This document shows, piece after piece, positions 6,957 to 47,640 of a stretch of 64,000 bases of DNA. Position 1 is the stretch's first letter. Each line of letters begins with the position of its first letter. This DNA is from a virus (taxonomy: Duplodnaviria; Heunggongvirae; Uroviricota; Caudoviricetes), in the IMG/VR virus record IMGVR_UViG_3300035698_027074; one strand, given 5' to 3'. The position numbers and the translations under genes were made by a program. The notes below the pieces were generated by a model, which had not been told where the DNA came from, made no database searches, and was given only the letters and a program-made list of their open reading frames with translations.

Positions 6957-6999
6957 TATCGTTTGGGTACTAATAGGTATTAGAATAAGAAAAAAAGGT

Positions 7000-7103: not shown

Positions 7104-7107
7104 TGTA

Positions 7108-28202: not shown

Positions 28203-28378
28203 CTTTTCGATTCTTTTCTTTTTTTAACAATTACATCAATAAAATCCCCTTTCTTGATAAATTCCTTCATATCATTTGGGATTTTTATGTAAAGCATCGT
28301 CCCTGTACTCTTGATTTTTGTGAAAAATTTATATTCAGAACCCATTAGTTTACACCTTCTCATATTTATTTGTATCTT

Positions 28379-29449: not shown

Positions 29450-29455
29450 TATTCA

Positions 29456-29695: not shown

Positions 29696-29697
29696 TG

Positions 29698-30054: not shown

Positions 30055-30144
30055 TCATTATCACCAATAAAAATAAAAAAACGAAGGTTTCCCTTCAAAC
30101 GAAAGTCTATCTTATTCTTTTGAAGAAGATTTGTGTTTCTAAGA

Positions 30145-30495: not shown

Positions 30496-30507
30496 TTGTT
30501 TTTCACC

Positions 30508-31452: not shown

Positions 31453-31514
31453 TTCTTCACCAATTTGTATTTATCTGTATCTACTTGTATCTTCTAGTAT
31501 TTATATTTAACTCA

Positions 31515-32174: not shown

Positions 32175-33447
32175 TCAACACATCCCCCGTTCTCTTTATC
32201 CACCCTTCGTCTACATTAACATACCATACTGAATCATTTATACTTACTATATTCAATTTACATCTGTGAATAACAAACCAATCGTGGTATGCTTTTAGAT
32301 AAGTTGGTTCATCTTTCGTTATATCTTTTATTTGAATACATGACCTATCTACATAATCAGAAAATTCTCCCCTGTAGGAATATTTTGGTATATTAAATAA
32401 CCATATAAAAAGTAAAATAAAACATATTCCATATAAATACAACCTATACTTTTCTGGTATGGATTTCACTATTTCCATAGCAAGGAATGGGAAAATAATT
32501 ATGTAATATCTCCAACTCATAAAAAAGTTAATTCCTATTATCTGAACTACTATAAACAAAAGAAGAAAAACCGATATAAAAATTGTTGATACCCCTATTT
32601 CTTTTGTCTTGATAAGATTATAAATAGTTGATAAAATACCGATAATCAAAAGTAAATCTATTGGAAGAAGGTAGAAACCACTCCCATCTATGAAATTTCT
32701 TTCTGGTTGATTGGATTGTATCCCCTCTTTCAACCATTCCTCACCAGACTCTATATTCGTTAGAGATTGACCAGTAAATGTTGCTATTATATCCCCATTT
32801 GTAAAAATAAAATTCCTTAAATATAATGGAGTAATAATCAATAATGCAATCAATATTGATAAGAAATATGGGTTCTTATAAAATTGTTTGGTAAATATTT
32901 CTTTCCATTTAAAAATAAGAACAGAAAGACCATAACACCCTAAAATCAAAAACCCTGTTCCTTTCACTAAAGGGCATAGACCAGCAAAGATACCAGATAA
33001 TATTGGTTTTTTATGGAAAAAATAATAACATGATAATGCAAAAACCAACATTATAGTATCGTTAGCTCCGAATATTAATAATCTTACGAACATAAATGAC
33101 AAGAAAAGGACTGGTATAGCCTCTTTCTTTATCTTCCACATCAAAACACCAAGTGAAATCATTATTAAAACATCAACTATACTTGGTGTTAACCCGATTA
33201 TTATAAAGAAACCATATAATAATGGTCCTAGTGGTGGATAAAAATATGGATATGTTTTATAAACAAAAACCCTTTTGTTTGCAGTAAACCCCTCACCAGT
33301 AAACATTTTAATTGGGTCTTGATAAATCTCTTTTCCTGTAACATAATGGACATAATTATCTGAATGTGAAGAAATATAATAGAGGGACATTATTGGCATC
33401 ACTATTACCAAAATGAAAAGGAATATTTTTTCAATTTCAATTTTCAT
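32161..33447 (-). CDS. Polytopic membrane protein, GT-C-like glycosyltransferase candidate (428 aa, about 11 TM helices)
   Basis: YPYFYPPLGPLLYG loop after the first TM and a large hydrophobic core. GT-C membership is inferred from topology and context. Confidence 0.4.
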   Translation of the reverse strand: MKIEIEKIFLFILVIVMPIMSLYYISSHSDNYVHYVTGKEIYQDPIKMFTGEGFTANKRVFVYKTYPYFYPPLGPLLYGFFIIIGLTPSIVDVLIMISLGVLMWKIKKEAIPVLFLSFMFVRLLIFGANDTIMLVFALSCYYFFHKKPILSGIFAGLCPLVKGTGFLILGCYGLSVLIFKWKEIFTKQFYKNPYFLSILIALLIITPLYLRNFIFTNGDIIATFTGQSLTNIESGEEWLKEGIQSNQPERNFIDGSGFYLLPIDLLLIIGILSTIYNLIKTKEIGVSTIFISVFLLLFIVVQIIGINFFMSWRYYIIIFPFLAMEIVKSIPEKYRLYLYGICFILLFIWLFNIPKYSYRGEFSDYVDRSCIQIKDITKDEPTYLKAYHDWFVIHRCKLNIVSINDSVWYVNVDEGWIKRTGDVLNVTV

Positions 33448-33644
33448 TGGTCTACACCCACCACTTTAATAATTACTTCTACATCATCACCTTCACCAAA
33501 TGAATAATCACCATCAAACATTCTTGAAACAGATTGGGATATATTAATGATAAAGGATTTATTTCCCAAAATTCTGAGAAATCTTCCATGTTCATTGGTT
33601 TTCATTTTAGATACTTTCCCTATTATTTTCAGTTCGTTTTTCAT
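33444..33644 (-). CDS. Small hypothetical protein (66 aa)
   Basis: ORF track; wedged between a radical SAM gene and the GT-C-like gene, overlapping both by 4 nt. Confidence 0.35.
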   Translation of the reverse strand: MKNELKIIGKVSKMKTNEHGRFLRILGNKSFIINISQSVSRMFDGDYSFGEGDDVEVIIKVVGVDQ

Positions 33645-35065
33645 TCAGGCACCTGTTTCTGATTACTCAAGAGATAATGAAAAACTGGTTTGACAAACCT
33701 CAACATTCTAAACATCTCCATTGGTTTGAATATGATTCTTCTTATATAACCAAGATTGAAATAACATTCTCTGATTGCCTTCTTACACCAGTTATCCAAA
33801 TCCTTGAATGTTAAATGTGGATAACTTACCTTCCCATTTTCATTTAAATGATTATCTTGTTTTAATTTGTAATACAAAGGTGTTTCTTTATAGACCCTTG
33901 GAACAGCGAATTGATATGTTGATATTTTTAAATTTTTAGCCCAATTTATTGTTTCTTTTATGGTCTCATCAGTTTCTAATTTTGATGTTCCAAAAAGAAA
34001 ATCACCATGTATCTCAATATCAAGTTCATTACATACTTTTGTGAATTCTTCCAATTGTTTTTTTGTTACTCCCTTATTCATTTCTTTTAATATCTTGTCA
34101 CTACCAGACTCATAACCAACATGTAATACATGAAGACCACTCTTCTTACATTTCTTCAGAATTTCTTTTGTGTACAACATGTCTCCTCTTGCGTATGTTG
34201 ACCATCTTATTTTTATTCCTCTCTCCAAAATCCCTTCTGCAATTTTTTCCAACCTTTCTGGAGGAACAGTTCCGTCCTGAAAAAATACTTCTTTTATTTT
34301 TGGTGGTTTTCCTATACAAAATGATGTTATATGTTGTTTTGAAATCCAATTAATTTCATTTAATACGTCATCCAATTTTCTTTCTGATGTACCACATGTT
34401 TTGAAAATTGTGTTTGGATAAAGACAAAATGTACAATTTCCCCAATAACATCTTCTAGAACTAACAAACATATCAACAAATGGATGGAATAAACTACCTA
34501 TCCTATAATTTTTTATATTAAGGTATTTCAGATATGTTTTTGATACCCAAGGTAAATCATCTATTTCTTCTTGGTTCATTCTACCCCCAAGAATAACTTT
34601 ATCAAAATTTTCACCGTCTGCAATTCTTTTAACAATATATTCGAATTCACCTAAAACATAATGGTCAACAAACTTAGAATCTGTTGGTATCATACTAACC
34701 CAAGGACCCACAAATATTGTTTTAGAACCTATCGTCTTGAACATCTTTGCTAACTCTAAATTAACCTTCAGGCCATCTTCTGATATGTATATTACAACAA
34801 CATCTGGTTCTGGATTATCTTTCATAGTTCTTGAATCATAATAATCATAAAAACATGAATATTTTTCAAAAACAAAATCGTTGGGTATGCCCTCAGTTTC
34901 TGCATCTATTATTTTACATTTATGTTTATGTTTTTCGAGTAACCCAAGTGTTGATGCAAGAAATATTGGTGGCCATTGACTCCCACTAATCGTTGTGCCA
35001 TCCCATCTAGCATTGTGGATATAATTTTTCCTAATAAATGGATTAATCAATAATACTTTTGTCAT
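33641..35065 (-). CDS. Cobalamin-binding (class B) radical SAM enzyme, 474 aa (tandem array member 1)
   Basis: SSRRCYWGNCTFCLYP (CxxxxxCxxC variant); N-terminal MTKVLLINPF... B12-domain-like region. Confidence 0.65.
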   Translation of the reverse strand: MTKVLLINPFIRKNYIHNARWDGTTISGSQWPPIFLASTLGLLEKHKHKCKIIDAETEGIPNDFVFEKYSCFYDYYDSRTMKDNPEPDVVVIYISEDGLKVNLELAKMFKTIGSKTIFVGPWVSMIPTDSKFVDHYVLGEFEYIVKRIADGENFDKVILGGRMNQEEIDDLPWVSKTYLKYLNIKNYRIGSLFHPFVDMFVSSRRCYWGNCTFCLYPNTIFKTCGTSERKLDDVLNEINWISKQHITSFCIGKPPKIKEVFFQDGTVPPERLEKIAEGILERGIKIRWSTYARGDMLYTKEILKKCKKSGLHVLHVGYESGSDKILKEMNKGVTKKQLEEFTKVCNELDIEIHGDFLFGTSKLETDETIKETINWAKNLKISTYQFAVPRVYKETPLYYKLKQDNHLNENGKVSYPHLTFKDLDNWCKKAIRECYFNLGYIRRIIFKPMEMFRMLRFVKPVFHYLLSNQKQVPE

Positions 35066-35697
35066 TATTTATCATCTTTTCTTTTAAATAACATTACCCA
35101 AAAACCATTCAAACATGTTGTCTCAAAATCAAATAAAATAAAATTATTTTTCTTGAACGATTCTGTAAATTCGTCAAATTCATAGTCTTGTTCTGGTGGT
35201 CCTTTTTCTGGAGTAAATTTGTAATATAAATCTGCTAATTTTCTGAACAAGGAATCCTTGTTTGGTTGAACTAGAAGGACATATTTATCACTTATCCTAC
35301 ACATCTCATCCACGTAAGGTTGAAGGTTTGACTTATTAAAATGTTCTATCAATCCTTCAGAATGTATCAAACCGATTTCCCTGTCTTCAAAATTAGTGTC
35401 AAATGCATCCATACAATAGACCTTCAATCCCAATTTTTTACTACAGTGTTGGGCTGATGTTTCTGAAGTGTCTATACCGACTATATCCTTAAATCCCATT
35501 TCTTTATACCATAACATAGACCTCCCTGTTCCACATCCAATATCAACCATCTTCAAATCTCTTGGTATATTTTTTAGAATTTTTTTCATACTTCTCTTAA
35601 CAATCCCCAAAAAAAATCTAGCTAAGAAACTCAACTTCATTTCTGGGAAATCTTTCCATGTCTTTTCCCACTCCTCTATTACTTCTTTTCTATCCAT
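35065..35697 (-). CDS. Class I SAM-dependent methyltransferase, 210 aa
   Basis: MVDIGCGTGRS (motif I); LIHSEGLIEH. Confidence 0.6.
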   Translation of the reverse strand: MDRKEVIEEWEKTWKDFPEMKLSFLARFFLGIVKRSMKKILKNIPRDLKMVDIGCGTGRSMLWYKEMGFKDIVGIDTSETSAQHCSKKLGLKVYCMDAFDTNFEDREIGLIHSEGLIEHFNKSNLQPYVDEMCRISDKYVLLVQPNKDSLFRKLADLYYKFTPEKGPPEQDYEFDEFTESFKKNNFILFDFETTCLNGFWVMLFKRKDDK

Positions 35698-35701
35698 ATT
35701 C

Positions 35702-37141
35702 TCACCCCGTTACATAAAAAAATGCTCTTGCCATTTCCTTAATTTCTTTCCATGACCTTATTCTCGTCAATCTTTTCAGAATATATTTTGGTCTCATATA
35801 AAATTTTTTATGAACATACCTCAATGCTTTCATTAAATCTACATTACTCATCTCATCTGTCCTTATTACAGCCTCTTCAGCTAATCCATATGCGTCATAA
35901 CCACCAAAATTATAATCCCTAATAAGGTAACCATTTTCTTTAAAAAAATCATATAATTTTGTTCCTGGGTATGGTGTTGTCAATACAAATTGACAGAATT
36001 CTGGTTCTAATTCAAGAGCAAATTGTAATGTATTTTCAACTGTTTCCCATGTCTCACCTGGTAATCCTATCATAAATGACCCTGAAGCATGTATTCCAGA
36101 CTTTTTTGTCAGTTCAAACGTTTTTCTGATGTCATCAATTTTTATACCTTTGTTGACAATATCCAATAACTTTTGGTTTCCTGACTCCACCCCAAAAAGA
36201 ATATTCCAACAACCAGATTTTTTCATCACTTTTAACATTTCCTCATCTAGTGTATCAACACGACTATTACATGACCATGAAACCTTTATTTTTCTTTCAA
36301 TAATTCCATTGCATACTTCTATTACTCTTTTCTTGTTTACTGTAAACGTCTCGTCAAATATGTAAATTTCTTTGATTCCATATTTGTTCACTAGAAGTTC
36401 TATTTCATCAAGTATATTTTCTGATGACCTAGAATACCATCCTTTCCCAGAACCTCTCCATACAGTAGAACCACCAACAATACAAAAATCACATTTATAT
36501 GGGCATCCCCTACTTGAAATTAATGTCATAAATGGAAACTTTTTTGCAAAAGTGATTGAATTATATTTTTTAATTGATAATAAATCATATGCAGGAAATG
36601 GTAGGTCATCTAAATTTTTGAATGGTTCTGTTGGTGGGGTACTTATTATCTCCTTGTCTTTTCTGTAACTGATTCCAGTAACCCATTCCAAATCTCCATT
36701 ATTTTCCAAAACATTTAATAATTTTTCCAGTGTTTTTTCTGACTCACCACGAATCAAAATATCAATATCCATGAATGTCTCTAATGTTCTCTCTGGTAGG
36801 ATTGGTGCTATGTGAGCATCATCAAGAATTGTTATAATTTTTTTGTTGACTCTCTTCGCTACCGTAGCTGTCTGTGCATCAAAAGACATTGTAGATGGTG
36901 AAGATTTAAACAGAACTATGTCTGGACTGAACTCCTCAATTATCTTTTCTATATCAATCCATTTCAAATCAAGAGCATTTGCATCTAAAAGTTTTATATC
37001 AACCTTGTCCCTCAGATAAGACGCAATGTAAGCTAAATCTATTGGTGGATATATTGAAACTGGGGAAGTTCCAGCACATCTTATCTCTCTGACTACGGGT
37101 ATTCCGTGAAATCTTGGGGGGTTAATTAACATCAACTTCAT
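35702..37141 (-). CDS. Cobalamin-binding (class B) radical SAM enzyme, 479 aa (tandem array member 2)
   Basis: SSRGCPYKCDFCIVGG; N-terminal MKLMLINPPRF...; C-terminal HKKFYMRPKYI. Confidence 0.7.
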   Translation of the reverse strand: MKLMLINPPRFHGIPVVREIRCAGTSPVSIYPPIDLAYIASYLRDKVDIKLLDANALDLKWIDIEKIIEEFSPDIVLFKSSPSTMSFDAQTATVAKRVNKKIITILDDAHIAPILPERTLETFMDIDILIRGESEKTLEKLLNVLENNGDLEWVTGISYRKDKEIISTPPTEPFKNLDDLPFPAYDLLSIKKYNSITFAKKFPFMTLISSRGCPYKCDFCIVGGSTVWRGSGKGWYSRSSENILDEIELLVNKYGIKEIYIFDETFTVNKKRVIEVCNGIIERKIKVSWSCNSRVDTLDEEMLKVMKKSGCWNILFGVESGNQKLLDIVNKGIKIDDIRKTFELTKKSGIHASGSFMIGLPGETWETVENTLQFALELEPEFCQFVLTTPYPGTKLYDFFKENGYLIRDYNFGGYDAYGLAEEAVIRTDEMSNVDLMKALRYVHKKFYMRPKYILKRLTRIRSWKEIKEMARAFFYVTG

Positions 37142-38757
37142 TTTTTATCACCCACCGACTTCAATAATGATAAGGCACTCTTTATGTTTTCCTTGAATTC
37201 TGAAAATGACCTTATTGAAAAGAATTTTCTCATTATATATTTTGGTCTAAAATAGAACTCTTTATATGCAGTTTTTACTGCTTCTTCCAAGTCTTCTGGT
37301 GTTAAATTGTCATATTTGACAACTGCTTTATTTGTAGCACTATAGAAGTCCGACCAATCATCTACAAACAACTTCACCAACCACCCGTTATCAACACACA
37401 TATTATAGAATTCAGTACCAGGATATGGCATACATATAGGAAATTGTGCTGTATCTGGATTTAATTCTTTTGCAAAATCAATTGTTTGTCTTATTGTTTC
37501 TTTTGTTTCCCCTGGTGCTCCAAACATGAATGTAGCATGAATCCTTATCCCAACCTTCTTTGTATTCTTTATTGTTTCTCTTATTTGTTTAAGAGTTATA
37601 CCTTTTTTCATATTATTTAATATTTTTTGACTTCCTGATTCTACCCCATAAACAATCATGTCACACCCTGACTTCTTCATTCTTTCCAACATCTCTAAAT
37701 CAATTGAATTCACTCTGGATAATGTTCCCCATCTGATTTTCTTATGGATTCCTTTCTCAATCATTAGGTCACAAATATCTAGAACACGTTGCTTGTCAAT
37801 TGTGAATGTGTCATCGTCTATGTAAATATATTTTACTTTATAGTCATCAAGAAGGAATTCCATCTCTTTTATTACATTTTTCGGACTCCTAGCACGGAAT
37901 TGTCTATTGAACAGAACTTGATTCCATACACAAAAAATACATCTACCATAACACCCACGTGACGATAACATTCTAACAAATGGTGTTCTTGTTGTGTTTG
38001 TTTCACGATATTTTCTCATTGGAAGATGGTGTCTTGCAGGAAATGGTAGGTCATCCAAGTTTTGGATTAGTTCTCTGGGTTGTGTTATAATAACTTTTCC
38101 GTCTTTTTTAAATCCTATTCCCTTAACCTTTTCTAGATTATCCAAATTATTAACAACATCCCTTACAGTGTAATCAAATTCACCTATAGCAACCACATCA
38201 ACTGGATATTTTTCCAACAATTCTTTGGGAAAAACCGATGGGTGTGTTCCGACCATCATTAATTTTGAACCATATCTCTTGACTATATCAAATATTTTTT
38301 TGTCATTATCAAATGATGGTGTAGAAGTTTCTATAATTATTAAATCTGGTCTCTGGATTTGGACATATTTCTCAAAACCATCCCAACCTCCCCCTTCAGC
38401 TAAAAAATCACCTAACTTCACTTCTACATTAGTATCCCTTTCAAGGACTGCTGTCGCATAAGCTAATAATAATGGTTCTGAATATGTCCCTGAAACTGAT
38501 TTAGAACTCCATCTACTAAATCTGTTGAATCCTTCTTCCCATGGTAAATTTGCCAATAATACTTTCATTCTCTTTGTTTTCTTGAACATATGATTTTTCT
38601 TGAAATAGTCCTGTGACTCTTTAGATATTCCCAAATCTTTCATCTCTCCCATTGTTGTTCCCTGAATTCCTTCATTTTCTTGAATAGTTAAATCCCATTC
38701 ATTTGTAGTAAATGATAACAATTCTTTTAGAATTTTATTTTCTTTATTAACATCCAT
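37138..38757 (-). CDS. Cobalamin-binding (class B) radical SAM enzyme, 539 aa (tandem array member 3), with an N-terminal extension
   Basis: SSRGCYGRCIFCVWNQ; KEFYFRPKYIM. Confidence 0.7.
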   Translation of the reverse strand: MDVNKENKILKELLSFTTNEWDLTIQENEGIQGTTMGEMKDLGISKESQDYFKKNHMFKKTKRMKVLLANLPWEEGFNRFSRWSSKSVSGTYSEPLLLAYATAVLERDTNVEVKLGDFLAEGGGWDGFEKYVQIQRPDLIIIETSTPSFDNDKKIFDIVKRYGSKLMMVGTHPSVFPKELLEKYPVDVVAIGEFDYTVRDVVNNLDNLEKVKGIGFKKDGKVIITQPRELIQNLDDLPFPARHHLPMRKYRETNTTRTPFVRMLSSRGCYGRCIFCVWNQVLFNRQFRARSPKNVIKEMEFLLDDYKVKYIYIDDDTFTIDKQRVLDICDLMIEKGIHKKIRWGTLSRVNSIDLEMLERMKKSGCDMIVYGVESGSQKILNNMKKGITLKQIRETIKNTKKVGIRIHATFMFGAPGETKETIRQTIDFAKELNPDTAQFPICMPYPGTEFYNMCVDNGWLVKLFVDDWSDFYSATNKAVVKYDNLTPEDLEEAVKTAYKEFYFRPKYIMRKFFSIRSFSEFKENIKSALSLLKSVGDKK

Positions 38758-40194
38758 CTAATTAACCTCCTTTCTGTCTTTCCCACTCTGGGTATGAAAT
38801 ATCGCTTTAAGAAATGCAATACCAGCGTTTGTCATCATTTTAAATTGTCTCCAATTTCTGATACTTATTGCTCGTTTAATTATATATTTTGGTCTCATAT
38901 AAAATTCTTTATGTGCTTTTGCATAAAATTCTTCCACCACTTCTGGATTTGGAACATCTGGGTGTGTGAACATAAATTTTCCTGATGTGTGCTGAATGTT
39001 TTCCCAACTGTTAGTATCAAAAAGGAATTTTCCATCTTTTTTAATCATTTCATACATTCTCGTCCCTGGATATGGTGTTGCCATATTGAACAATGCAACA
39101 TCAACATCTAATTCTTTTGCAAAATCAATTGTTTGTCTCATGGAATATATCGTATCACCAAATAAACCAAACATAAAAAATCCCGATATGATTTGTATTT
39201 TTGCTTCCTTAGCACATTTTACTGCGTTTCTTGACATATCTAAAGTAATTGATTTAGGTATTTTATTTAAAACCTCTTGATTACCAGACTCAAACCCAAA
39301 AGCTACATAATCACAACCAGCTTTCTTCATTTTAACCATAAACTCTTTTGTTACCCCATTTACCCTTATTCCATTAGTTGTTCTGATGTGAATCTTAAGA
39401 CCAGAATCAATAATCAAATCCAACATTTTTTCAGCCCTTTTCATGTCCATATTAAAATTATCATCATAAATTGCAATTTCTTTTACACCATATTCATTAA
39501 CCAAAAATTTAATCTCTTTGAAAACATTTTCTGGTGTTCTTGCTCTGAATTTATATCCGAATATTTTTTTACAACAAAAATTACAGTCAAAAGGACAACC
39601 ACGTGAAGTAAATATACATGCCCATGGGGTATATTGAGTTCCTGCTGAGATATATGGTTTATCAACACCATTACTTTCTAGTAGATGTCTTGATGGGAAT
39701 GGAATTTTATTTGGGTCAAGTGGTTCTCTAGATGGATTATGAAATATTTTCTCATTCTTCTTATAAGATATTCCTTTTATTTTTTCCAATGATTTTCCTT
39801 GAACTATTTCTAAAAATGTATACTCACCTTCAGCCCTGACAACAATATCAAATCCTTGTCTTAAAATATCATCTGGTAATGCAGTAGGGTGTGGACCACC
39901 ACAAACTTTGAGAACATTATCTGGAAGTAAATTGATAAAATCAGTACTCCATTTTTGAGCTGGACTTAATATACTAACTCCAATAATATTATAATCTTTT
40001 GCATATTCTAAAGTCTGTTCTGGTGACAGATTTTTGAGATTAGCATCAAAAATTTTAGGTTTAAAACCATTTTCTTCAAGAACTGATGCTATATAACACA
40101 AACCTATTGGTGGATTGAGCATCCATGCACCAGACTTTCTTGCTTCTGCATAATTTGGTTGGACCAATAATATTTTTTTATTCATCCTTATCAA
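38758..40194 (-). CDS. Cobalamin-binding (class B) radical SAM enzyme, 478 aa (tandem array member 4)
   Basis: TSRGCPFDCNFCCKK; MIRMNKKILLVQPNY...; HKEFYMRPKYI. Confidence 0.7.
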   Translation of the reverse strand: MIRMNKKILLVQPNYAEARKSGAWMLNPPIGLCYIASVLEENGFKPKIFDANLKNLSPEQTLEYAKDYNIIGVSILSPAQKWSTDFINLLPDNVLKVCGGPHPTALPDDILRQGFDIVVRAEGEYTFLEIVQGKSLEKIKGISYKKNEKIFHNPSREPLDPNKIPFPSRHLLESNGVDKPYISAGTQYTPWACIFTSRGCPFDCNFCCKKIFGYKFRARTPENVFKEIKFLVNEYGVKEIAIYDDNFNMDMKRAEKMLDLIIDSGLKIHIRTTNGIRVNGVTKEFMVKMKKAGCDYVAFGFESGNQEVLNKIPKSITLDMSRNAVKCAKEAKIQIISGFFMFGLFGDTIYSMRQTIDFAKELDVDVALFNMATPYPGTRMYEMIKKDGKFLFDTNSWENIQHTSGKFMFTHPDVPNPEVVEEFYAKAHKEFYMRPKYIIKRAISIRNWRQFKMMTNAGIAFLKAIFHTQSGKDRKEVN

Positions 40195-40582
40195 CTCTCT
40201 TTATATAAGTAGTATTCCATGGGTCATGAAATACCCTATCTGAAATTGTCTTTAAACTTCCTCTATGATAATCTGGTTTCATCTTTCCCTGAACAATATA
40301 GTTATCATATGCAGAAACATTATTTTCAAACATGTGGCTATAAGATGGAGCGTCTATTAAAAAGACGTGAATAAATAATCCTATTCCAAAAAATAAAATA
40401 AAATATCTTATGAAATCATGTTGAAGGAACTTAATATTACTAGAGAAATATGCTAAAATCATCCCTATTGATGCCATTAAAAACCACATAAAATGGTGTA
40501 CAAATATCATTTTTCCTTCCCTCCTGTGAATATAAAAAATCCTATTGCAAAGAATGTAATAAAAAATACTGTACCTAACCAA
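40178..40582 (-). CDS. Small membrane protein (134 aa)
   Basis: Three TM helices. Confidence 0.4.
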   Translation of the reverse strand: MVRYSIFYYILCNRIFYIHRREGKMIFVHHFMWFLMASIGMILAYFSSNIKFLQHDFIRYFILFFGIGLFIHVFLIDAPSYSHMFENNVSAYDNYIVQGKMKPDYHRGSLKTISDRVFHDPWNTTYIKRVDKDE

Positions 40583-40688
40583 TGAAAAATGTATATAGGA
40601 AATATTCTAAGATGGTCAACATCAATGAGTATTTCAGAAAGAAATCCAAAAATTGATGATATTAATATTATAATTTTTTTTTCATTTT

Positions 40689-41708
40689 TCATTTTATCAC
40701 ACCAAATTGATTTTTTCTTATATTTTTCTCAGTTATTTCAAAATATTTGTTTTTCAATGATTTTTTTAATAATTTAGAAACAGAATTTATACTCACATTA
40801 TATAATTTTGAAATTTCTTTGAGTGTTGTTCCATTTAAATATTTTTTTTTCACATTGTCTCTCTTATTTTTCATTCTTATTTGGGGTGTATTATTCATCA
40901 AATTAATAACATCAAAATCAATCAAACAACATCTTGGTTTCTTTCCATGTAATAAACACCACACTATCCTCTCTTTGATACCCATTATTTTTGATATTTT
41001 TCTCCTCCCAAATCCAAAATTAATTCTATAATATTTTATTTTTTCATAATCTTTTTTACTTATGATTTTTAAAGGATTTATTTCTAGATATTTATTTATT
41101 TTATACTGTTTTCTTTTAATTGTAAAACCTATTTTTTCATTAAATTTTTTAAGATTTCTAACATTTGATATATTTAAATTAAATACGATATTGTTTTTAA
41201 CTGTCCTTCTCTTTACTGTTAATATTTTTGATTCGATTCCTATTTTGTTTAAAAGTTCCCATATTTGAAACAATCCATTTCTATTAATACTTTGAATACT
41301 AATAGTACAACCAGAAAAACTACCTTCTGAATCAACATAACCTTTTAAAAAATTACAAATAATATTTTCATTTTTAGAATTCATTATTTCTCTAGGAACA
41401 GCCCATGATTTTGTTCTGAATAACCCAAATTTTTTTTCTATATAATTTATTAAAATGATGGAATTAATCCCAGTATAAAAAATCCCTTTACTTTCAAAAA
41501 AGAATGACTTACCAAACTTTTTTTTGACTTCATTCTTAAATTTAAGAACAAACTCTTTATCCTTTGCAGATAAACGGATTTTACCAGATTTTTGATATTT
41601 TGAAATAGACCCATCACCACATAAAGTACCCAAAATGTATGAAAAGGAATTTGTAATATCCATCCTATTTAGATTCATTGTTTTATTTCTCATTCTTCTC
41701 CACCACAT
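40689..41708 (-). CDS. LAGLIDADG homing endonuclease-family protein (two motifs) with a C-terminal HTH domain, free-standing, 339 aa
   Basis: YILGTLCGDGSI and FLKGYVDSEGSF (two LAGLIDADG-type motifs); C-terminal TLKEISKLYNVSINSVSKLLKK helix-turn-helix. Confidence 0.6.
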   Translation of the reverse strand: MWWRRMRNKTMNLNRMDITNSFSYILGTLCGDGSISKYQKSGKIRLSAKDKEFVLKFKNEVKKKFGKSFFFESKGIFYTGINSIILINYIEKKFGLFRTKSWAVPREIMNSKNENIICNFLKGYVDSEGSFSGCTISIQSINRNGLFQIWELLNKIGIESKILTVKRRTVKNNIVFNLNISNVRNLKKFNEKIGFTIKRKQYKINKYLEINPLKIISKKDYEKIKYYRINFGFGRRKISKIMGIKERIVWCLLHGKKPRCCLIDFDVINLMNNTPQIRMKNKRDNVKKKYLNGTTLKEISKLYNVSINSVSKLLKKSLKNKYFEITEKNIRKNQFGVIK

Positions 41709-41834
41709 GAAATGTCACTGTAGATTGTGGTGCTTTGCCACATTGTGATTGGTTAAGAATCCAACTTTGCATGTTTTTACAATCCTCCTTGTTTTCAAAA
41801 CCCAATTCAAGTACGTATTTCTCTTTCATTTCAT

Positions 41835-42089
41835 TCACCCCATTACCCTCTCCAAAACTAATGCCAATGCAAGTAAAAAAAATAATAGACCCATATACAA
41901 CCATGCCTCTCTTTTCCTAAACCATTTTGATATTTTTTCCAGACCACCACTCTTTTCATTGATTGTTATAAGTATCATTAATCCTATTATCCATTTCCAA
42001 AGTCCCCAGTTGTAGTCAATACAGAACTGTCTGAGTAACCACCCTATTATTATTGACAATATAACAGTTACTTCATAAAATTGAACCAA
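41835..42089 (-). CDS. Small membrane protein (84 aa)
   Basis: Two or three TM helices. Confidence 0.35.
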   Translation of the reverse strand: MVQFYEVTVILSIIIGWLLRQFCIDYNWGLWKWIIGLMILITINEKSGGLEKISKWFRKREAWLYMGLLFFLLALALVLERVMG

Positions 42090-42093
42090 TATA

Positions 42094-42909
42094 TCACCTT
42101 GACAACCTCTGTGTTAATATTATCTTTGTTAAACACAACGTAACTCCTATTGCATTCATTACACCATCAATTGTTTTAGTCCCTGTCCTTAGATATGGTG
42201 TTTTTATGTCAACGTATTTGACGTTATATCCTCTTCTCGTCACCTTGTCTTTAACTCTACCTGCGATTACATTCATTTCTCCTTCTATAGCATATCTTCT
42301 ACTACTGGAAAATCTCAGGACATCCTTAAGAAATGAAACAGTGAATGCACGAAAACCAGATTCACTATCAATGACATTAAAACCAGATATTACTCTTCCC
42401 CATATATTTAAAAACTTGTTACCAAACTTCTTATAATCTGGGTAGTCTGATGTATCTCTTGCCCCGACCACAAGGTCGACAACCTCTTCTTCATTTTCCA
42501 TTGCTTCAATAAGTTTAGGCAAATCTTCTGGGTTGTGTTGACCATCTGAATCCATCGTAATAATAATATCATTATTTAGTTCTGAAATATTCCTATTACA
42601 CAATAACCACCAAAAGGCGTATCTTAGTGTTGCTCCCTTACCTAAATTAATAGGATTAGAAATAACATCATTTGCACCACTGGATTTGGATATTAAACTA
42701 GTTGTATCTGTTGAACCATCGTCAAAAACACATATGTTCGCATATGGTAATACATGTCTACATCCCTTTATAACATCACTAATCGTTTTTTCTTCATTTT
42801 TAGCAGGGATTACAATAAAAATCCTCTGTTTTCTTCCATACAAATCTTTTTTCATTTGTTCATCAAAATCTTTTTGATTCATTAATTCACACCTCCAGTT
42901 ACAAACCAA
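42094..42909 (-). CDS. GT2 polyprenyl/dolichyl-phosphate sugar synthase (DPM1/ArnC/AglD-like), 271 aa
   Basis: IVIPAKNEEKTISDVI...VFDDGSTDTT...IITMDSDGQHNPEDL (GT2 DPM-synthase-type motifs). Confidence 0.7.
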   Translation of the reverse strand: MVCNWRCELMNQKDFDEQMKKDLYGRKQRIFIVIPAKNEEKTISDVIKGCRHVLPYANICVFDDGSTDTTSLISKSSGANDVISNPINLGKGATLRYAFWWLLCNRNISELNNDIIITMDSDGQHNPEDLPKLIEAMENEEEVVDLVVGARDTSDYPDYKKFGNKFLNIWGRVISGFNVIDSESGFRAFTVSFLKDVLRFSSSRRYAIEGEMNVIAGRVKDKVTRRGYNVKYVDIKTPYLRTGTKTIDGVMNAIGVTLCLTKIILTQRLSR

Positions 42910-43292
42910 ACTCCTATAAATGTAATAATCATTCCAAAAGTTGAGAACCCAAGACCCATTAATTGAGAAGATGTTAGAACCTCATTAAGAATTTTTGTAT
43001 TGAGGTACATATTTATCAATAAAATTGGGATTCCCATTCCCATGAAAGCAACAATGACCTTACTTGCGTCTGTTAGAGAAAATGCCCACATTGTTACTCC
43101 CCACATCACAAAATTCAATGATAAAATCAAAATTGCATGGGGGTTTGTTAGTAATTTAAACCAAGTATCAAAACTCAAGAAACTCTTTAATGTTATCTCT
43201 CCAAAACTTGTCATTATGTATTTCTTTGATATATTAATGAAAATATTCACTAAACTCACCAACACAACTAATCCCCATACCAATAATCTCAC
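42882..43292 (-). CDS. Small 4-TM membrane protein (136 aa), candidate ArnE/F- or GtrA-like flippase partner of the adjacent GT2
   Basis: Four hydrophobic helices; overlaps the GT2 gene. Function is inferred from context only. Confidence 0.35.
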   Translation of the reverse strand: MRLLVWGLVVLVSLVNIFINISKKYIMTSFGEITLKSFLSFDTWFKLLTNPHAILILSLNFVMWGVTMWAFSLTDASKVIVAFMGMGIPILLINMYLNTKILNEVLTSSQLMGLGFSTFGMIITFIGVWFVTGGVN

Positions 43293-43918
43293 TTCTTATC
43301 ACCTTCTAATAATATTACTGTTTTAGTGTTTCCCATCCATTTGACCTTGACTTTTCCTTCTTTTTCTAAAATATCAACATATTTTGAAACTGTTGCAGAA
43401 CATATAGTTGATTTCTTTGCAATTTTATTAATCCATGTAAATTTTCCCAAATCACGTATTGTATCCAAAATATGTTCTTTTACAAGGCCATGAGACCCAG
43501 AACTTTTTCTGTATTTTGCCCATTTTCCCCCATTATTATAAAGAGGATTAAGTTTATTTATCAATTTTTTTTCTGACTCCAATATTTCTTTCCAATCTTT
43601 ATCATTTTCATTTTTCATTTTAATATAAGAAAAATATTTTACCTCATCAAAATGTAAACTGTTGCTTTTATGACCTTCTCTAATTCTTTTACCTATATTT
43701 GAACTGGCACCAATATATAATGGTTCCTTTCTTTCATTAAATAATATATATAAACCAGAAATTTTGAAAAGTTTTTCTATATCCTCTATTTCTATCATAT
43801 CAGAGTTTTCTTTTTTAATAAGTTCTGATATAACATCTGCTAACCTTTTCTTATTCATATCTATTTTAATTTTTGAAAGTTTACTCCAGTCACCATCATA
43901 AACCTTAACATTCTTCAT
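43289..43918 (-). CDS. GIY-YIG nuclease-family protein with a C-terminal winged-helix domain, 209 aa
   Basis: ISGLYILFNERKEPLYIGASSNIGKRIREGH...NKLNPLYN (GIY...YIG...R...E...N); C-terminal CSATVSKYVDILEKEGKV. Confidence 0.55.
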   Translation of the reverse strand: MKNVKVYDGDWSKLSKIKIDMNKKRLADVISELIKKENSDMIEIEDIEKLFKISGLYILFNERKEPLYIGASSNIGKRIREGHKSNSLHFDEVKYFSYIKMKNENDKDWKEILESEKKLINKLNPLYNNGGKWAKYRKSSGSHGLVKEHILDTIRDLGKFTWINKIAKKSTICSATVSKYVDILEKEGKVKVKWMGNTKTVILLEGDKK

Positions 43919-44218
43919 AAAAAATATGTTATCTTTTTATATTTATATACTTTTATCTTTTTACCACTATAAAGTTATCAACAAGTATCATCTGATAACT
44001 TTATATACTTGTTTGCACAATAATAATTATGAAAAAAAATATAAAACCCCATTGTTGGGAAAAATCCAAGAGGAACGTGTTGGTAGATAAAATTAATCCT
44101 TTCTTCCACCAACATGGAAAAATAAAAATTTTTTTCTTAACTCACCGTTCAATTCCTCGATTCCAGTCAACATTGGGGTTTATGGTTTTTCCAAAAAAGT
44201 CACTAAATTGGTGAAATT

Positions 44219-44536
44219 ATGTATAAATATAATCTTGAACCCGATGTTAAAAGAATAATGAATATTGTTCCTGTTTTTTCTTCTAAAAGGGCATTACAAC
44301 TATTGATGAAGATGAATAAGTTTGAAGAACCACTTACAACATATAGAATTATAAAATTGGTAACAAACACCTCTAAACCAGTTGTTGGTTGTACGTGGTA
44401 CAATGCAATGAGAATACTGAGAGAATCGGGGTGTGTTGTAACTATCAAAGATAAATTCTCAAAACTCAAAAGGTATAGAATAAGTAAAAGGGGAATTAAA
44501 GTACTTGAATTCCTCAATGAGATGGTAGAAACATGA
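44219..44536 (+). CDS. Winged-helix transcriptional regulator (ArsR/TrmB/MarR-like), 105 aa
   Basis: RALQLLMKMNKFEEPLTTYRIIKLVTNTSKPVVGCTWYNAMRILRESGCV. Confidence 0.5.
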   Translation: MYKYNLEPDVKRIMNIVPVFSSKRALQLLMKMNKFEEPLTTYRIIKLVTNTSKPVVGCTWYNAMRILRESGCVVTIKDKFSKLKRYRISKRGIKVLEFLNEMVET

Positions 44537-44817
44537 AAGGTTCGTTTGCTATTGCATTAGTTATATCATTAGTATTTGTTGCAGGGTTATTCTTATTATA
44601 TCTTATAACTTACACATACAACCCACCAATGAATCGGAGGGTATGTTGTGAAGAGATGTGTAAAGACAAAGAACTAACATTTTATGAAACCAAATATATA
44701 GAAAAGACGTTAATGTGTATTTGTAAAGATAAGTCAGGGTCATTTAGTGATTTTGAATTAAATGATGATGTTTGTATTAAAATACTAGGTGGTAACAATG
44801 AAACAGAAAATGGGTAA
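44533..44817 (+). CDS. Small membrane-anchored Cys-rich protein (94 aa)
   Basis: N-terminal TM then a Cys-rich ectodomain; 4-nt overlap with the upstream gene. Confidence 0.4.
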   Translation: MKGSFAIALVISLVFVAGLFLLYLITYTYNPPMNRRVCCEEMCKDKELTFYETKYIEKTLMCICKDKSGSFSDFELNDDVCIKILGGNNETENG

Positions 44818-44995
44818 ACATTATTTTTGTCGAATTCCAAACAACGAAATTGTTGATATAAATGGAAAGAATTATGAACTCCATGAACTATTAGAAGAAA
44901 TAAGGATATATTATGCTTCAAGGTCTAAAAAACAAGCTTTAATTCAATTAATAATTGAAAAAAATAAAGAAATTAAAAAGGAGGTAGAAAAGTAA
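44789..44995 (+). CDS. Hypothetical small protein (68 aa)
   Basis: ORF track; stop overlaps the prohibitin start. Confidence 0.35.
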   Translation: MVTMKQKMGKHYFCRIPNNEIVDINGKNYELHELLEEIRIYYASRSKKQALIQLIIEKNKEIKKEVEK

Positions 44996-45888
44996 TGCCA
45001 ATAAAAACAGAAAAAGACCGACCAATGTATGAAATTCCTGGTTATTTGAAAGTAATGATAGGAATTTTTGTAATTTTGGTCATTGGTTTGATTTTTAACC
45101 CCCTTGTATTTGTAGGAGCAGGTGAACGAGGAGTAGTGATGAAGTTCGGAGCGGTACAGGACAAGATAATGGGTGAAGGTTTGAATTTCAAAACACCTAT
45201 TGTTGAATCAGTGGAGAAAATGGATGTTAAAAAACAGAAATATGAAACAGATTCTTCAGCAGCATCAAAGGATTTACAGATAGTCAGTTCAATAGTAGCA
45301 GTGAATTACAGATTGAATGAACATTCAGTTAATTGGTTGTACCAGAATATCGGTTTGAACTATAAACAACTGATAATTGAACCATCTGTACAGGAAGCAG
45401 TGAAAGCAGCGACAGCACAATATACAGCAGAAGAACTAATAACACAAAGACCATTAGTGAGGGATTTGATGTTACAAAAATTCAGAGAAAAAATGTCAGA
45501 ACTTTCAAGTGGCTCTATAATTGTTGAGGATATTAATATCATTGATTTTGATTTCTCAGAAGAGTTTAACGACGCTATTGAAAAGAAAGTTACAGCAGAA
45601 CAGAAAGCATTGGAAGAAGAGTGGAATTTGGAAAAAGTCAAATTTGAAGCACAACAATCTATAGAGAGAGCAACAGCTGAAGCGAAAGCATTACAGCTAC
45701 AGGGAGAATCAGTAAGAGAATCACCAGAACTTATAGAACTTAGAAAAGTTGAAGTTGAAAAATTAAAACTAGAAGTTCAAACTCAAGCAATAGAAATGTA
45801 CAAGGAAAAATGGGATGGTAAATTACCAATGTGGGTAACAGAAGGTAATATGATGCCATTCATTAGTGTGGGAGGGGTCCCAAGTTAA
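44995..45888 (+). CDS. SPFH/Band 7 family protein, prohibitin/HflK-like, 297 aa
   Basis: SD AGGAGGT 8 nt upstream; TM then GERGVVMKFGAVQD...GLNFKTPIVESVEKMDVK...; coiled-coil AEAKALQ. Confidence 0.7.
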   Translation: MPIKTEKDRPMYEIPGYLKVMIGIFVILVIGLIFNPLVFVGAGERGVVMKFGAVQDKIMGEGLNFKTPIVESVEKMDVKKQKYETDSSAASKDLQIVSSIVAVNYRLNEHSVNWLYQNIGLNYKQLIIEPSVQEAVKAATAQYTAEELITQRPLVRDLMLQKFREKMSELSSGSIIVEDINIIDFDFSEEFNDAIEKKVTAEQKALEEEWNLEKVKFEAQQSIERATAEAKALQLQGESVRESPELIELRKVEVEKLKLEVQTQAIEMYKEKWDGKLPMWVTEGNMMPFISVGGVPS

Positions 45889-45927
45889 GTTTTTTTTTCT
45901 TTTTTCTTTTTTTAAGACCAAATATTG
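45889..45927 (+). terminator. T-rich tract (archaeal-type terminator) after the prohibitin-like gene
   Basis: taagtttttttttcttttttctttttttaag. Confidence 0.5.
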
Positions 45928-46088
45928 GAATTCTATTATTAAGTGGTTGTACTAAGAAAGGAGAAGAAAGACCGATATGTATTGGAAACCGTTAAAGATA
46001 AGATATTAAACCTTGAAAAGTCATTAAATAAACTAAACAAATAATTCATATCTATGTAGGATTGAAATAAGTACAATAAAGAGAAGGG

Positions 46089-46388
46089 ATGTTAACATTG
46101 AAAAGTCCATATTATTTCTCATTAAGAGAAGTTAAATTATACTGTTCTAAACTACACTTAAGTACAAAAATTGCAAAAAAATCAAAGAAAATGATGGATA
46201 AGATACGGTCAAATGGTGGAATAGATGGTACATCACCAAAATCATGGTTAGCAGCATCAATATATATTTCTGCAAGTTCAGAGAATGAAATAAGGACACA
46301 AGAAGAACTTTCAGATATAATGTGTTGTGGAAAAAGTACTATAAATGGTAAAATAAAAAGAGTTCTAGAAATCAGTCAGAAATGGTAA
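46089..46388 (+). CDS. Standalone TFB/TFIIB second-cyclin-repeat protein (99 aa)
   Basis: YCSKLHLSTKIAKKSKKMMDKIRSNGGIDGTSPKSWLAASIYISASSENEIRTQEELSDIM...TINGKIKRVLE aligns with the TFB C-terminal repeat (GRSPISVAAAAIYMASQ...KRTQKEIGDIAGV...TIRQSYRLI). It has no zinc ribbon, B-reader or first cyclin repeat, and there is an in-frame stop 12 nt upstream. Confidence 0.55.
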   Translation: MLTLKSPYYFSLREVKLYCSKLHLSTKIAKKSKKMMDKIRSNGGIDGTSPKSWLAASIYISASSENEIRTQEELSDIMCCGKSTINGKIKRVLEISQKW

Positions 46389-47354
46389 TTACCAATTTTG
46401 ACATTTGTTTATTAACCATTCATCAGATATTGAACATTGTTGCATTGTTCTAATTGGATTCTTGTAATAAACATCATAATCCAGACATTCTGTTGGATAC
46501 ATTACACCACGTGTTGACTCTACAAACACCCACCCTTTATCTGGTAACCAAGAAGATAACCATGAATGTCCACCACCAGCTACTAACATTACACCATCTT
46601 CCATCTTTGATGGTCCTACCAAAGAAATTGTCGTCAATTCAGGACATCTACCACTAGGTTTTACACAACCAGTATTTTGATGTGATGCTATCCCCATACA
46701 CCTGAGTAATGCTAAGTTTACTCTTGACATTGTTGAACATACACCCTTGCCAACTTCTATTATACCTGTAGCATCAGTGTCTCTACAATAACTGAGTGAA
46801 TAGATTTCATCTGACAAGTCATATTTTATATTGTTTCTTGTCCATGAGATGGTATTTCTTATTGACTGTTCTGGGTCATCATCGACTCTTAATTCATTTA
46901 CTAGATTTTGTATTGTTTCATCAGAACAACTGAACATATTTTCTTCCAAATAAGAATCTGATATTGAATATTCTAACATGTTGTTCCTATATTCATCTGA
47001 AAAGATTTCCTTTCTTTCACATGTTGAAGTATAGTCTGGTAACCACTCACTATTGAAACAAATATATGGTATATTTCCAAAACAATCCCTTTGCCCTTCA
47101 TAACAATCTATTGAATAACAACTACCATCAAGGCAATTTCCTCCACAAACATCAACTACAACATAACCAACATTCTCCTTACAATACAAAACAAAATTAC
47201 CAGCACATGCGTATTCTCCCACTTCACAATCCATATCTTGGTAACTTATTAACTTCAATCTATAATAAATGAATAAACCACCGAGTATTATAATCACTGG
47301 TATTAAGATTAAAAATACTTTTTTGAATTTTTTATCCTTAGACTTCTTTGCCAT
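46389..47354 (-). CDS. Transglutaminase-like Cys-protease-fold protein with N-terminal TM and a Cys-rich ectodomain, 321 aa
   Basis: GVCSTMSRVNLALLRCMGIASH (the Cys of the TGase core) and later GGGHSWLSSWL...GWVFVESTRG (the His/Asp part). Confidence 0.55.
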   Translation of the reverse strand: MAKKSKDKKFKKVFLILIPVIIILGGLFIYYRLKLISYQDMDCEVGEYACAGNFVLYCKENVGYVVVDVCGGNCLDGSCYSIDCYEGQRDCFGNIPYICFNSEWLPDYTSTCERKEIFSDEYRNNMLEYSISDSYLEENMFSCSDETIQNLVNELRVDDDPEQSIRNTISWTRNNIKYDLSDEIYSLSYCRDTDATGIIEVGKGVCSTMSRVNLALLRCMGIASHQNTGCVKPSGRCPELTTISLVGPSKMEDGVMLVAGGGHSWLSSWLPDKGWVFVESTRGVMYPTECLDYDVYYKNPIRTMQQCSISDEWLINKCQNW

Positions 47355-47433: not shown

Positions 47434-47640
47434 ATGGTAAGAAAATCAAACAGAAAGACCTACAAAAAGAAAACTACAGCTAAGAATGCTAGGAAGAAAG
47501 GTCAGTCTCTTTATAAAGTAAAGGGTGGATACAGATTGACTAAACCAAGAAGAACAAAGAGAAGAACTACTAGAAGAAAAACCACAAGGAGAAGGACTAC
47601 AAAGAGAAAATCCACTAGAAGAAGGTCAAAAAGAAGGTAA
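47434..47640 (+). CDS. Protamine/histone H1-like extremely basic protein (68 aa) with RRTT/KRK repeats
   Basis: SD GGAGGT upstream; MVRKSNRKTYKKKTTAKNARKKG...RRTKRRTTRRKTTRRRTTKRKSTRRRSKRR. Confidence 0.5.
   Translation: MVRKSNRKTYKKKTTAKNARKKGQSLYKVKGGYRLTKPRRTKRRTTRRKTTRRRTTKRKSTRRRSKRR

What the first reader, a model, noticed from the sequence alone, without database searches (positions are those of the whole stretch)
46089..46388. Standalone protein equal to the second cyclin repeat of TFB/TFIIB
From the sequence, the 99-aa ORF aligns along its length with the C-terminal cyclin fold of TFB, including the helix that contacts BRE DNA. It has its own start, an upstream in-frame stop 12 nt before the ATG, and no zinc ribbon, B-reader/linker or first cyclin repeat. 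It could be a remnant of a TFB paralog, or a small competitive regulator that binds TBP/BRE without recruiting RNA polymerase.
Basis: partly seen in the sequence, partly recalled or inferred. Interest (0 to 1): 0.5.

Follow-up and report, generated by a model that had tools for sequence, protein, structure and literature searches.

The report
Stand-alone TFB second-cyclin mini-protein
A small archaeal gene encodes only the last domain of the general transcription factor TFB; the gene is real and conserved in one related genome, but the DNA-reading residues of the domain have changed, so it is probably an accessory regulator, not a transcription initiation factor.

Summary
ORF 46089..46388 (+), 99 aa, is a complete stand-alone copy of the second cyclin/HTH repeat of TFB/TFIIB. 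It scores 45.2 bits on Pfam PF00382 and matches only positions 211-304 of a 311-position TFB profile. An AlphaFold model (pLDDT 92.7) superposes on Pyrococcus TFB at TM 0.83. It is not a frameshifted tfb: an SPFH gene ends 200 nt upstream, and no frame of the spacer holds TFB-like sequence. It is not a fresh remnant either. Among 1.84 billion representative proteins there is one ortholog (100 aa, 36-38% identity, same start). That ortholog sits at the same place in a colinear contig, directly after an SPFH gene. The host is a poorly sampled DPANN archaeon; its PCNA is about 50% identical to Aenigmarchaeota. The "BRE competitor" idea is only partly supported. The HTH fold is present, but the conserved V-T-I-R-N-R recognition motif reads S-T-I-N-G-K. 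The HTH is also the least conserved part between the two orthologs (4/27 identical against 33/72 elsewhere). The protein is basic (pI 9.65). It cannot recruit RNA polymerase. It most likely modulates initiation through DNA or protein contacts, and the mechanism is untested. Moderately interesting: a new architectural variant of a known family.

The parts
46089..46388 (+). mini-TFB gene: 99 aa plus stop, consisting only of the TFB/TFIIB second cyclin/HTH repeat
46089..46121 (+). N-terminal tail (residues 1-11, MLTLKSPYYFS). It corresponds to the inter-repeat linker of full-length TFB and is the best conserved segment between the two orthologs (7/11 identical).
   Evidence: The model is less confident over this tail: mean pLDDT 72 for residues 1-10.
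46299..46379 (+). Helix-turn-helix (helices 71-78 and 82-97). The recognition helix begins K82-S83-T84-I85-N86-G87-K88 where canonical TFBs have e-V-T-I-R-N-R.
46077..46088 (+). In-frame TAA stop (46077-46079), then AGAGAAGGG, a weak Shine-Dalgarno-like GAAGGG that abuts the ATG
   Evidence: Other genes of the window carry GGAGG/GGTG 5-9 nt before the ATG. The ortholog has GGTGA 5 nt before its ATG.
45890..45913 (+). T-rich tract (T9 C T6 C T7) right after the SPFH stop codon; a likely archaeal oligo-T terminator that separates the mini-TFB from the upstream operon
   Evidence: Read directly. That it works as a terminator is inference.
44995..45888 (+). SPFH/Band_7 gene, the conserved upstream neighbour of the mini-TFB in both genomes

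Best explanation
The ORF is a genuine, expressed-type gene for a lineage-restricted mini-paralog of TFB. It probably arose by loss of everything N-terminal to the inter-repeat linker. What remains is an 11-kDa, strongly basic (pI 9.65, net +9) five-helix cyclin/HTH domain. It has no Zn ribbon, B-reader/linker or first repeat, so it cannot recruit or position RNA polymerase. I think it most likely acts as a small accessory factor at promoters. It would bind DNA through its basic surface and a re-specified HTH, possibly next to TBP. There it would occupy or alter the site that TFB's own C-terminal repeat needs, giving a modulatory and most simply inhibitory effect without polymerase recruitment. 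Shown: domain identity, completeness, fold, conservation of the gene and its position, loss of the canonical BRE-reading residues, and basic charge. Inferred: DNA binding, promoter targeting and the direction of the effect.
For: Domain identity and fold. Real gene: the unique ortholog P0007 (100 aa) is a reciprocal best hit (56 bits against 42 or less for other hits). It has the same N-terminus (ML.KSPY.F) and sits directly after an SPFH gene in a locus colinear with window 37141..46385. Nine of the eleven columns that are at least 80% conserved in 33 TFBs are kept in P0001, including the invariant Thr of the recognition helix. The region has the genome's average GC, so it is not an obvious foreign island. 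Basic charge comparable to or above canonical second repeats: pI 9.65 against a median of 9.14. Precedent: an engineered N-terminally truncated Sulfolobus TFB2 still engages promoters, cannot recruit polymerase and is dominant negative (bioRxiv 10.64898/2026.09.06.749720). The second repeat is the BRE-binding HTH module (PMC13502027; PMC4581349).
Against: The positions equivalent to human TFIIB V283 and R286 are changed to S and N in P0001, P and Q in P0007, and A and H in P0041. The numbering follows from the human sequence; their role in BRE contact is from my memory of Lagrange 1998 and Tsai & Sigler 2000. The HTH is the least conserved part between the two orthologs (4/27 identical against 33/72 elsewhere, p 0.005). 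In canonical TFBs it is among the most conserved parts. This argues against a conserved sequence-specific readout by this helix. The first repeat is absent; from my own knowledge it carries most TBP contacts. The Shine-Dalgarno-like motif is weak and abuts the ATG. Only two family members exist, so conservation statistics are thin. There are no expression or binding data.
Confidence: 0.35

Rival explanations
1. Protein-binding module rather than DNA binder. The free cyclin fold docks on another component of the initiation machinery, such as the N-terminal Zn ribbon/B-reader of the cell's full-length TFB, TBP or RNA polymerase, and so sequesters or tunes it, like an anti-factor.
For: Between the orthologs, constraint lies on the N-terminal tail (7/11 identical), helix 2 (7/16, including three conserved Lys) and helix 3 (9/15), not on the HTH. 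Cyclin folds are classic protein-recognition modules. [quoted passage not shown]
Against: Helix 3 is the buried core helix and is conserved in all TFBs. The tail matches the linker motif of full TFBs and may simply cap the domain. So the conserved parts may be structural rather than an interface.
Confidence: 0.25
2. Relic without function: a truncated tfb paralog left in the common ancestor of the two genomes. It still has an open frame but is drifting.
For: It evolves fast: 36% identity, against 44-72% for most syntenic neighbours. It has lost the canonical recognition residues. It has a weak ribosome-binding site in the window. The family is extremely rare, with two members in 1.84 billion representatives. 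No hits were found in GTDB genomes, JGI metagenomes or IMG/VR.
Against: Both copies keep an intact ORF of the same length (99 and 100 aa) and the same start, at a divergence where the neighbouring SPFH proteins are only 23-25% identical. Fold-determining residues are retained, and the model is confident. The ortholog has a good GGTGA ribosome-binding site and overlaps its neighbours in an operon-like arrangement. A neutral 300-nt frame in a 31% GC genome would quickly acquire stop codons.
Confidence: 0.15
3. C-terminal half of a split TFB. The Zn ribbon, B-reader and first repeat are encoded elsewhere, and the two polypeptides assemble into the working factor, as with the split genes known in Nanoarchaeota.
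For: The protein starts exactly at the inter-repeat linker, a natural split point. DPANN genomes are known for split genes (my own knowledge). No full-length tfb is seen in the 64-kb window or in the 12.7 kb of the related contig.
Against: An essential general factor would be expected to keep the V-T-I-R-N-R BRE-reading motif and to evolve slowly. Here the motif is lost and the HTH is the most variable part. It is at most 35% identical to any protein in the exhaustive search (27-32% to the closest multi-repeat TFBs). No ORF for an N-terminal half lies nearby in either locus. The rest of the genome could not be examined.
Confidence: 0.05

Closest known systems
C-terminal (second) cyclin/HTH repeat of archaeal TFB / eukaryotic TFIIB (e.g. 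P. woesei TFBc in PDB 1AIS/1D3U)
   Same: Same domain family (PF00382) and the same five-helix fold with a terminal HTH (TMq 0.83, rmsd 1.6 A). It keeps the G..P, AA.IY and RTQ signatures and the invariant Thr of the recognition helix.
   Different: It is a separate 99-aa protein and not part of a roughly 300-aa factor. The recognition motif V-T-I-R-N-R is replaced by S-T-I-N-G-K, and the HTH is not conserved within the mini-family.
Sulfolobus TFB3 (truncated TFB paralog, activator of the DNA-damage response; PMC6101594)
   Same: A naturally truncated TFB paralog that works as an accessory factor and not as a general factor.
   Different: TFB3 keeps the opposite end: the Zn ribbon plus a coiled coil. 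It lacks the C-terminal HTH domain. The present protein keeps only that C-terminal domain.
arCOG05559, a TFIIB variant with Zn finger plus a single cyclin domain in Thermoproteales T4P-like loci (PMC4858521)
   Same: A TFIIB-family protein reduced to one cyclin domain and encoded as a lineage-specific paralog.
   Different: arCOG05559 has the Zn finger and the present protein has none. The lineage differs (Thermoproteales against DPANN) and so does the gene neighbourhood.
N-terminally truncated TFB cores: engineered Sulfolobus TFB2-deltaN (dominant negative) and natural Zn-less two-repeat proteins such as P0004
   Same: They lack the polymerase-recruiting N-terminus. The engineered form binds promoters and blocks function. 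P0004 is the closest two-repeat relative of the mini-TFB (42.6 bits).
   Different: Those proteins keep both cyclin repeats and hence the TBP-binding first repeat. P0004 lies on a virus- or plasmid-like contig, whereas the mini-TFB is chromosomal and syntenic.

Membership tests
TFB/TFIIB general transcription factor (NCBIfam NF001658 / arCOG01981 type) | N-terminal Zn ribbon (CxxC...CxxC) that recruits RNA polymerase | tested here: not met
   No such motif in the 99 aa. The TFB profile matches only at positions 211-304 of 311.
TFB/TFIIB general transcription factor (NCBIfam NF001658 / arCOG01981 type) | B-reader/B-linker and first cyclin repeat | tested here: not met
   Absent from the ORF and from all forward frames of the 1.2 kb upstream.
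TFB/TFIIB general transcription factor (NCBIfam NF001658 / arCOG01981 type) | Whole-protein score above the curated cut-off | tested here: not met
   NF001658 scores 39.9 bits against a cut-off of 384.
TFB/TFIIB general transcription factor (NCBIfam NF001658 / arCOG01981 type) | Conserved BRE-reading recognition helix (V-T-[IV]-R-N-R) | tested here: not met
   S-T-I-N-G-K in P0001 and P-T-V-Q-K-R in P0007. The Arg that is 90% conserved in 33 TFBs is replaced in both.
TFB/TFIIB general transcription factor (NCBIfam NF001658 / arCOG01981 type) | Binds TBP-DNA and supports initiation | not testable with these tools
   Needs biochemistry or complex modelling.
Pfam PF00382 TFIIB repeat (cyclin-like domain superfamily) | Domain score above the gathering threshold and a five-helix cyclin fold | tested here: met
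   45.2 bits against 23.6. Five helices at pLDDT 92.7. TM 0.83 to 1d3u_B.
Pfam PF00382 TFIIB repeat (cyclin-like domain superfamily) | Identity as the second repeat rather than the first | tested here: met
   32.8 against 13.2 bits versus the two repeats of 1ais_B. Profile positions 211-304.
Sulfolobus TFB3-type truncated TFB | Zn ribbon plus coiled coil, no C-terminal HTH domain | tested here: not met
   The protein is the C-terminal HTH domain and has no Zn ribbon.
arCOG05559 (Zn finger + single cyclin) | Zn finger preceding the single cyclin domain | tested here: not met
   No Zn finger, and the ORF cannot extend upstream.

The most novel reading that the evidence does not exclude
DPANN archaea of this lineage carry a natural anti-initiation factor. 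A free TFB C-terminal domain, re-specified in its HTH, would bind promoter DNA or the cell's own TFB/TBP and repress (or re-target) transcription initiation without recruiting polymerase. This would be the C-terminal counterpart of the N-terminal-only activator TFB3, and a functional analogue of anti-sigma or free sigma-4-like domains in bacteria.
Probability: 0.25. Interest if true: 0.65.

Novelty: new variant of a known kind. Interest (0 to 1): 0.35.

Why it matters
Known archaeal regulation through TFB paralogs uses full-length alternatives or the N-terminal-only TFB3. A conserved gene for the C-terminal HTH domain alone would be the complementary case. If it binds promoters or initiation factors, it would be a very simple natural regulator of initiation in a reduced-genome DPANN archaeon. 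It would also be a handy minimal probe of what the second cyclin repeat does by itself. If it turns out to be inert, it documents how general-factor paralogs decay by domains.

Tried and rejected
1. Frameshifted or decayed full-length tfb. Six-frame translation of 45850-46400 and a TFB-profile search of stop-masked frames of 44900-46400 found nothing upstream of the ORF. Rejected.

2. Another TFB in the window or in the related contig. Searches of all stop-to-stop ORFs, by phmmer on ORFs of at least 50 aa and by TFB profile on ORFs of at least 40 aa, found none. A 314-aa ORF with a weak phmmer hit is a second SPFH protein.

3. More family members. The word-indexed search with the protein and with the two-sequence profile returned only the two proteins themselves. 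Scans of GTDB genomes, JGI metagenomes and IMG/VR with the profile found nothing. A JGI scan with the 69%-identical membrane-protein neighbour returned only a 1.6-kb contig of the same organism.

4. Taxonomic anchoring by PCNA in GTDB found nothing. The protein database gave about 50% identity to Aenigmarchaeota MAGs, and their PCNA loci are not syntenic with the window.

5. The ENA contigs L001 and L002 are 100% identical in DNA to the window, so they give no information on selection.

6. dN/dS was not attempted, because synonymous sites are saturated at 36% protein identity.

7. A possible small ORF between the SPFH gene and the mini-TFB is only marginally similar to the ortholog locus's small ORF (shuffle p about 0.04). 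It is left open.

8. The sigma-70 promoter scan is not relevant to archaea. By eye, TATA-like A/T runs are everywhere in this 31% GC genome, so no promoter is claimed.

9. The AFDB fold library was unavailable.

10. Papers giving the BRE-contact residues could not be retrieved. That point rests on my memory plus my own conservation count.

Full report
**1. The observation**

The ORF is exactly as described. The ATG is at 46089 and the TAA stop at 46386-46388, giving 99 codons. An in-frame TAA lies at 46077-46079, and the three codons between it and the ATG (AGA GAA GGG) cannot start translation.

Pfam PF00382 (TFIIB repeat) matches residues 13-91 at E 9.6e-12. The score is 45.2 bits, about twice the gathering score of 23.6.

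Against PDB sequences, the best match is the second repeat of Pyrococcus woesei TFB (1ais_B residues 111-191, 32.8 bits). The first repeat scores only 13.2 bits.

I built a profile from 33 full-length TFBs that carry a Zn ribbon. It aligns the ORF to positions 211-304 of 311, that is, from the inter-repeat linker to the C-terminus (E 2.4e-20). NCBIfam's TFB model matches at positions 224-302 of 312, with 39.9 bits against a whole-protein cut-off of 384.

AlphaFold2 without an alignment already gave five helices at pLDDT 69. With a 61-sequence alignment the model reaches pLDDT 92.7 and pTM 0.85, with helices at 12-21, 26-41, 50-64, 71-78 and 82-97. It superposes on TFB in the TBP/TFB/BRE-TATA complex 1d3u_B at TMq 0.83 and rmsd 1.6 A. 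One caveat: the alignment consists of TFBs, so the model leans toward that fold.

**2. Not a broken full-length tfb**

The gene upstream (44995..45888, +) is an SPFH/Band_7 protein (107.8 bits). Only 200 nt separate its stop from the ATG. The missing N-terminal parts of TFB would need about 630 nt.

The spacer opens with a T9-C-T6-C-T7 tract (45890-45913), the kind of oligo-T run that ends archaeal transcripts; that role is inferred. No forward frame of 44900-46088 shows any TFB-like sequence, even with stops masked.

The downstream gene (46389..47354, -) is a convergent transglutaminase-like protein. No other TFB-like ORF exists in the 64-kb window.

**3. The organism**

The window is archaeal chromosome. 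It holds PCNA, an S-layer protein, STT3/AglB, and tRNAs that Rfam finds at intron-containing lengths. GC content is 31%.

PCNA is at best about 50% identical to proteins that sources name as Candidatus Aenigmarchaeota. No GTDB representative genome holds a close relative. This is a poorly sampled DPANN lineage. The GC content around the ORF (0.30) equals the window average.

**4. It is a conserved gene, but a very rare one**

An exhaustive HMMER search of 1.84 billion representative proteins gave 103 hits at E up to 0.001, almost all of them ordinary TFBs matched in their second repeat at 23-32% identity.

One hit, P0007, is different. It is 100 aa long and aligns end to end at 36-38% identity. 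It shares the N-terminus ML.KSPY.F. It is the reciprocal best hit, at 56 bits against 42 or less for all other hits.

P0007's 23-kb contig (L003) is colinear with window 37141..46385:
- two radical-SAM genes, 72% and 66% identical
- a small membrane protein, 69-71%
- another membrane protein, 55%
- a GT2 glycosyltransferase, 44%
- a Cys-rich 94-aa protein, 39%
- a 68-aa protein, 52%
- the SPFH protein, 23-25%
- then the mini-TFB, 36%

In L003 the gene has a GGTGA ribosome-binding site 5 nt before the ATG and overlaps both neighbours. So both copies keep an intact ORF with the same length, start and position, even though the adjacent SPFH proteins have drifted to about 25% identity. That is hard to reconcile with a neutral remnant in an AT-rich genome.

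A third single-repeat protein, P0041 (114 aa, a complete gene on a short contig), is closer to other TFBs than to this pair. It looks like an independent truncation.

No further members turned up in the 5.8-billion-protein index, GTDB genomes, JGI metagenomes or IMG/VR. The only other contigs found carrying this locus are DNA-identical copies of the window.

**5. What is kept and what is lost**

Of the eleven columns that are at least 80% conserved in the second repeat of the 33 TFBs, P0001 keeps nine: L, L, G, P, A, Y, T, Q, and the invariant Thr of the recognition helix.

It loses the two arginines of the recognition motif. The consensus V-T-I-R-N-R (T 0.9, first R 0.9, second R 0.8) reads S-T-I-N-G-K in P0001, P-T-V-Q-K-R in P0007 and A-T-M-H-K in P0041.

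Counting back from the C-terminus of human TFIIB, the changed Val and Arg correspond to V283 and R286. I recall these from Lagrange et al. 1998 and Tsai & Sigler 2000 as the BRE-contacting residues. I could not retrieve those papers here, so the structural role rests on memory. The conservation count is my own computation.

The pattern of constraint is also inverted. Among canonical TFBs, helices 4 and 5 and the turn between them are among the most conserved segments (mean pairwise identity 0.36-0.44, against 0.20-0.25 for helices 1-2 and the linker). Between the two mini-TFB orthologs the picture is:
- N-terminal tail: 7/11 identical
- helix 2: 7/16
- helix 3: 9/15
- helix 4: 0/8
- the turn: 0/3
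- helix 5: 4/16

Overall the HTH has 4/27 identical positions against 33/72 elsewhere (Fisher p 0.005). Two sequences are a thin basis, but the direction is clear.

The protein is strongly basic: pI 9.65, with 18 K+R against 9 D+E.

**6. Mechanism**

What is shown: this is a folded, conserved, free-standing TFB C-terminal domain. It cannot do the things that need the Zn ribbon, the B-reader/linker or the first repeat. It no longer carries the canonical BRE-reading side chains.

What is inferred: it still works on or near the initiation machinery.

My preferred reading (about 0.35) is a small basic factor that binds promoter-proximal DNA, perhaps beside TBP. It would do so with a re-specified or relaxed HTH and thereby modulate access of the real TFB, most simply by hindering it. 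The engineered TFB2-deltaN of Sulfolobus shows that a TFB without its N-terminus engages promoters and acts as a dominant negative, though that construct keeps both repeats.

The main rival (about 0.25) is a protein-binding role, which the shift of conservation away from the HTH suggests. The domain could dock on the Zn ribbon/B-reader of full-length TFB, a contact predicted by modelling in PMC4581349, or on TBP or RNA polymerase.

A drifting relic (about 0.15) and the C-terminal half of a split TFB (about 0.05) are less likely, for the reasons in sections 4 and 5. The split-gene idea cannot be excluded without the rest of the genome.

The conserved adjacency to an SPFH gene is seen in only two otherwise colinear genomes. 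It therefore says little about function.

**7. Comparison with what is known**

The protein is a member of the PF00382 domain family. It is not a TFB in the functional sense: four defining features were tested and not met.

The truncated TFB paralogs that the literature search found are different:
- Sulfolobus TFB3 keeps the Zn ribbon and a coiled coil and lacks the HTH domain (PMC6101594).
- arCOG05559 has a Zn finger plus one cyclin domain (PMC4858521).

Zn-less two-repeat TFB cores are frequent among the hits. The closest one (P0004) lies on a virus- or plasmid-like contig, and viral TFB-like proteins exist.

Six full-text searches of the paper library found no description of a conserved stand-alone second repeat. 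I therefore rate it a new architectural variant of a known kind. Interest is moderate (0.35): the anatomy is clear, the family is tiny and the function is untested.

Noticed in passing
window 40689..41708 (-): ORF with two LAGLIDADG_3 stretches and a C-terminal HTH, in a GC 0.20-0.22 island. It is absent from the otherwise colinear L003 locus. It looks like a free-standing homing-endonuclease insertion.
   Followed up: partly
window 43289..43918 (-): GIY-YIG nuclease domain fused to a MarR-like winged HTH, in a lower-GC stretch. It also has no counterpart in L003, so it is possibly a second mobile nuclease gene.
   Followed up: partly
window 18662..40194 (-): Six paralogous radical-SAM genes, five of them with a B12-binding-domain hit (18662..20116, 23219..24634, 33641..35065, 35702..37141, 37138..38757, 38758..40194). 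The cluster also holds STT3/AglB (14350..16677), several glycosyltransferases, a PMT_2 protein and a methyltransferase. This is an unusually large surface-glycan or lipid modification cluster.
   Followed up: no
window 6999..7104, 7185..7274, 2026..2179 (-): Rfam finds three tRNA matches of 90-154 nt that ARAGORN does not report. They are probably intron-containing archaeal tRNAs, next to three ordinary ones.
   Followed up: no
window 44219..45888 (+): A tightly overlapping four-gene unit: a 105-aa winged-HTH-like protein, a 94-aa Cys-rich membrane protein, a 68-aa protein with a weak Arc/RHH-like hit, and SPFH. The last three are conserved in L003. A second SPFH paralog lies at 30508..31452.
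   Followed up: partly
window 45943..46044 (+): A possible 33-aa GTG-started ORF in the spacer before the mini-TFB. It weakly resembles the 50-aa ORF that sits at the same place in L003 (9871..10023). The similarity is only marginal (shuffle p about 0.04).
   Followed up: partly
window 47434..47640 (+); L003 11363..11563: A 68-aa extremely Arg/Lys/Thr-rich ORF with a strong GGAGG ribosome-binding site. A similarly basic 66-aa ORF sits near the corresponding place in L003. No family hit.
   Followed up: no
proteins P0005, P0006, P0013, P0015, P0031, P0081 (one search hits): Proteins of about 310-330 aa with hydrophobic, membrane-like N-terminal regions followed by two TFIIB cyclin repeats and no Zn ribbon. 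They look like membrane-anchored TFB-core proteins.
   Followed up: no
protein P0003 (one search hit): P0003 (477 aa) has a Zn ribbon followed by what look like four tandem cyclin repeats.
   Followed up: no
L008 6001..6684: P0004, a 227-aa two-repeat TFB core without Zn ribbon and the closest multi-domain relative of the mini-TFB. It lies among about 30 tiny same-strand ORFs, with a PCNA_N-domain gene and an RHH gene, on a 23-kb contig. This looks like an archaeal virus or plasmid encoding its own TFB core.
   Followed up: partly
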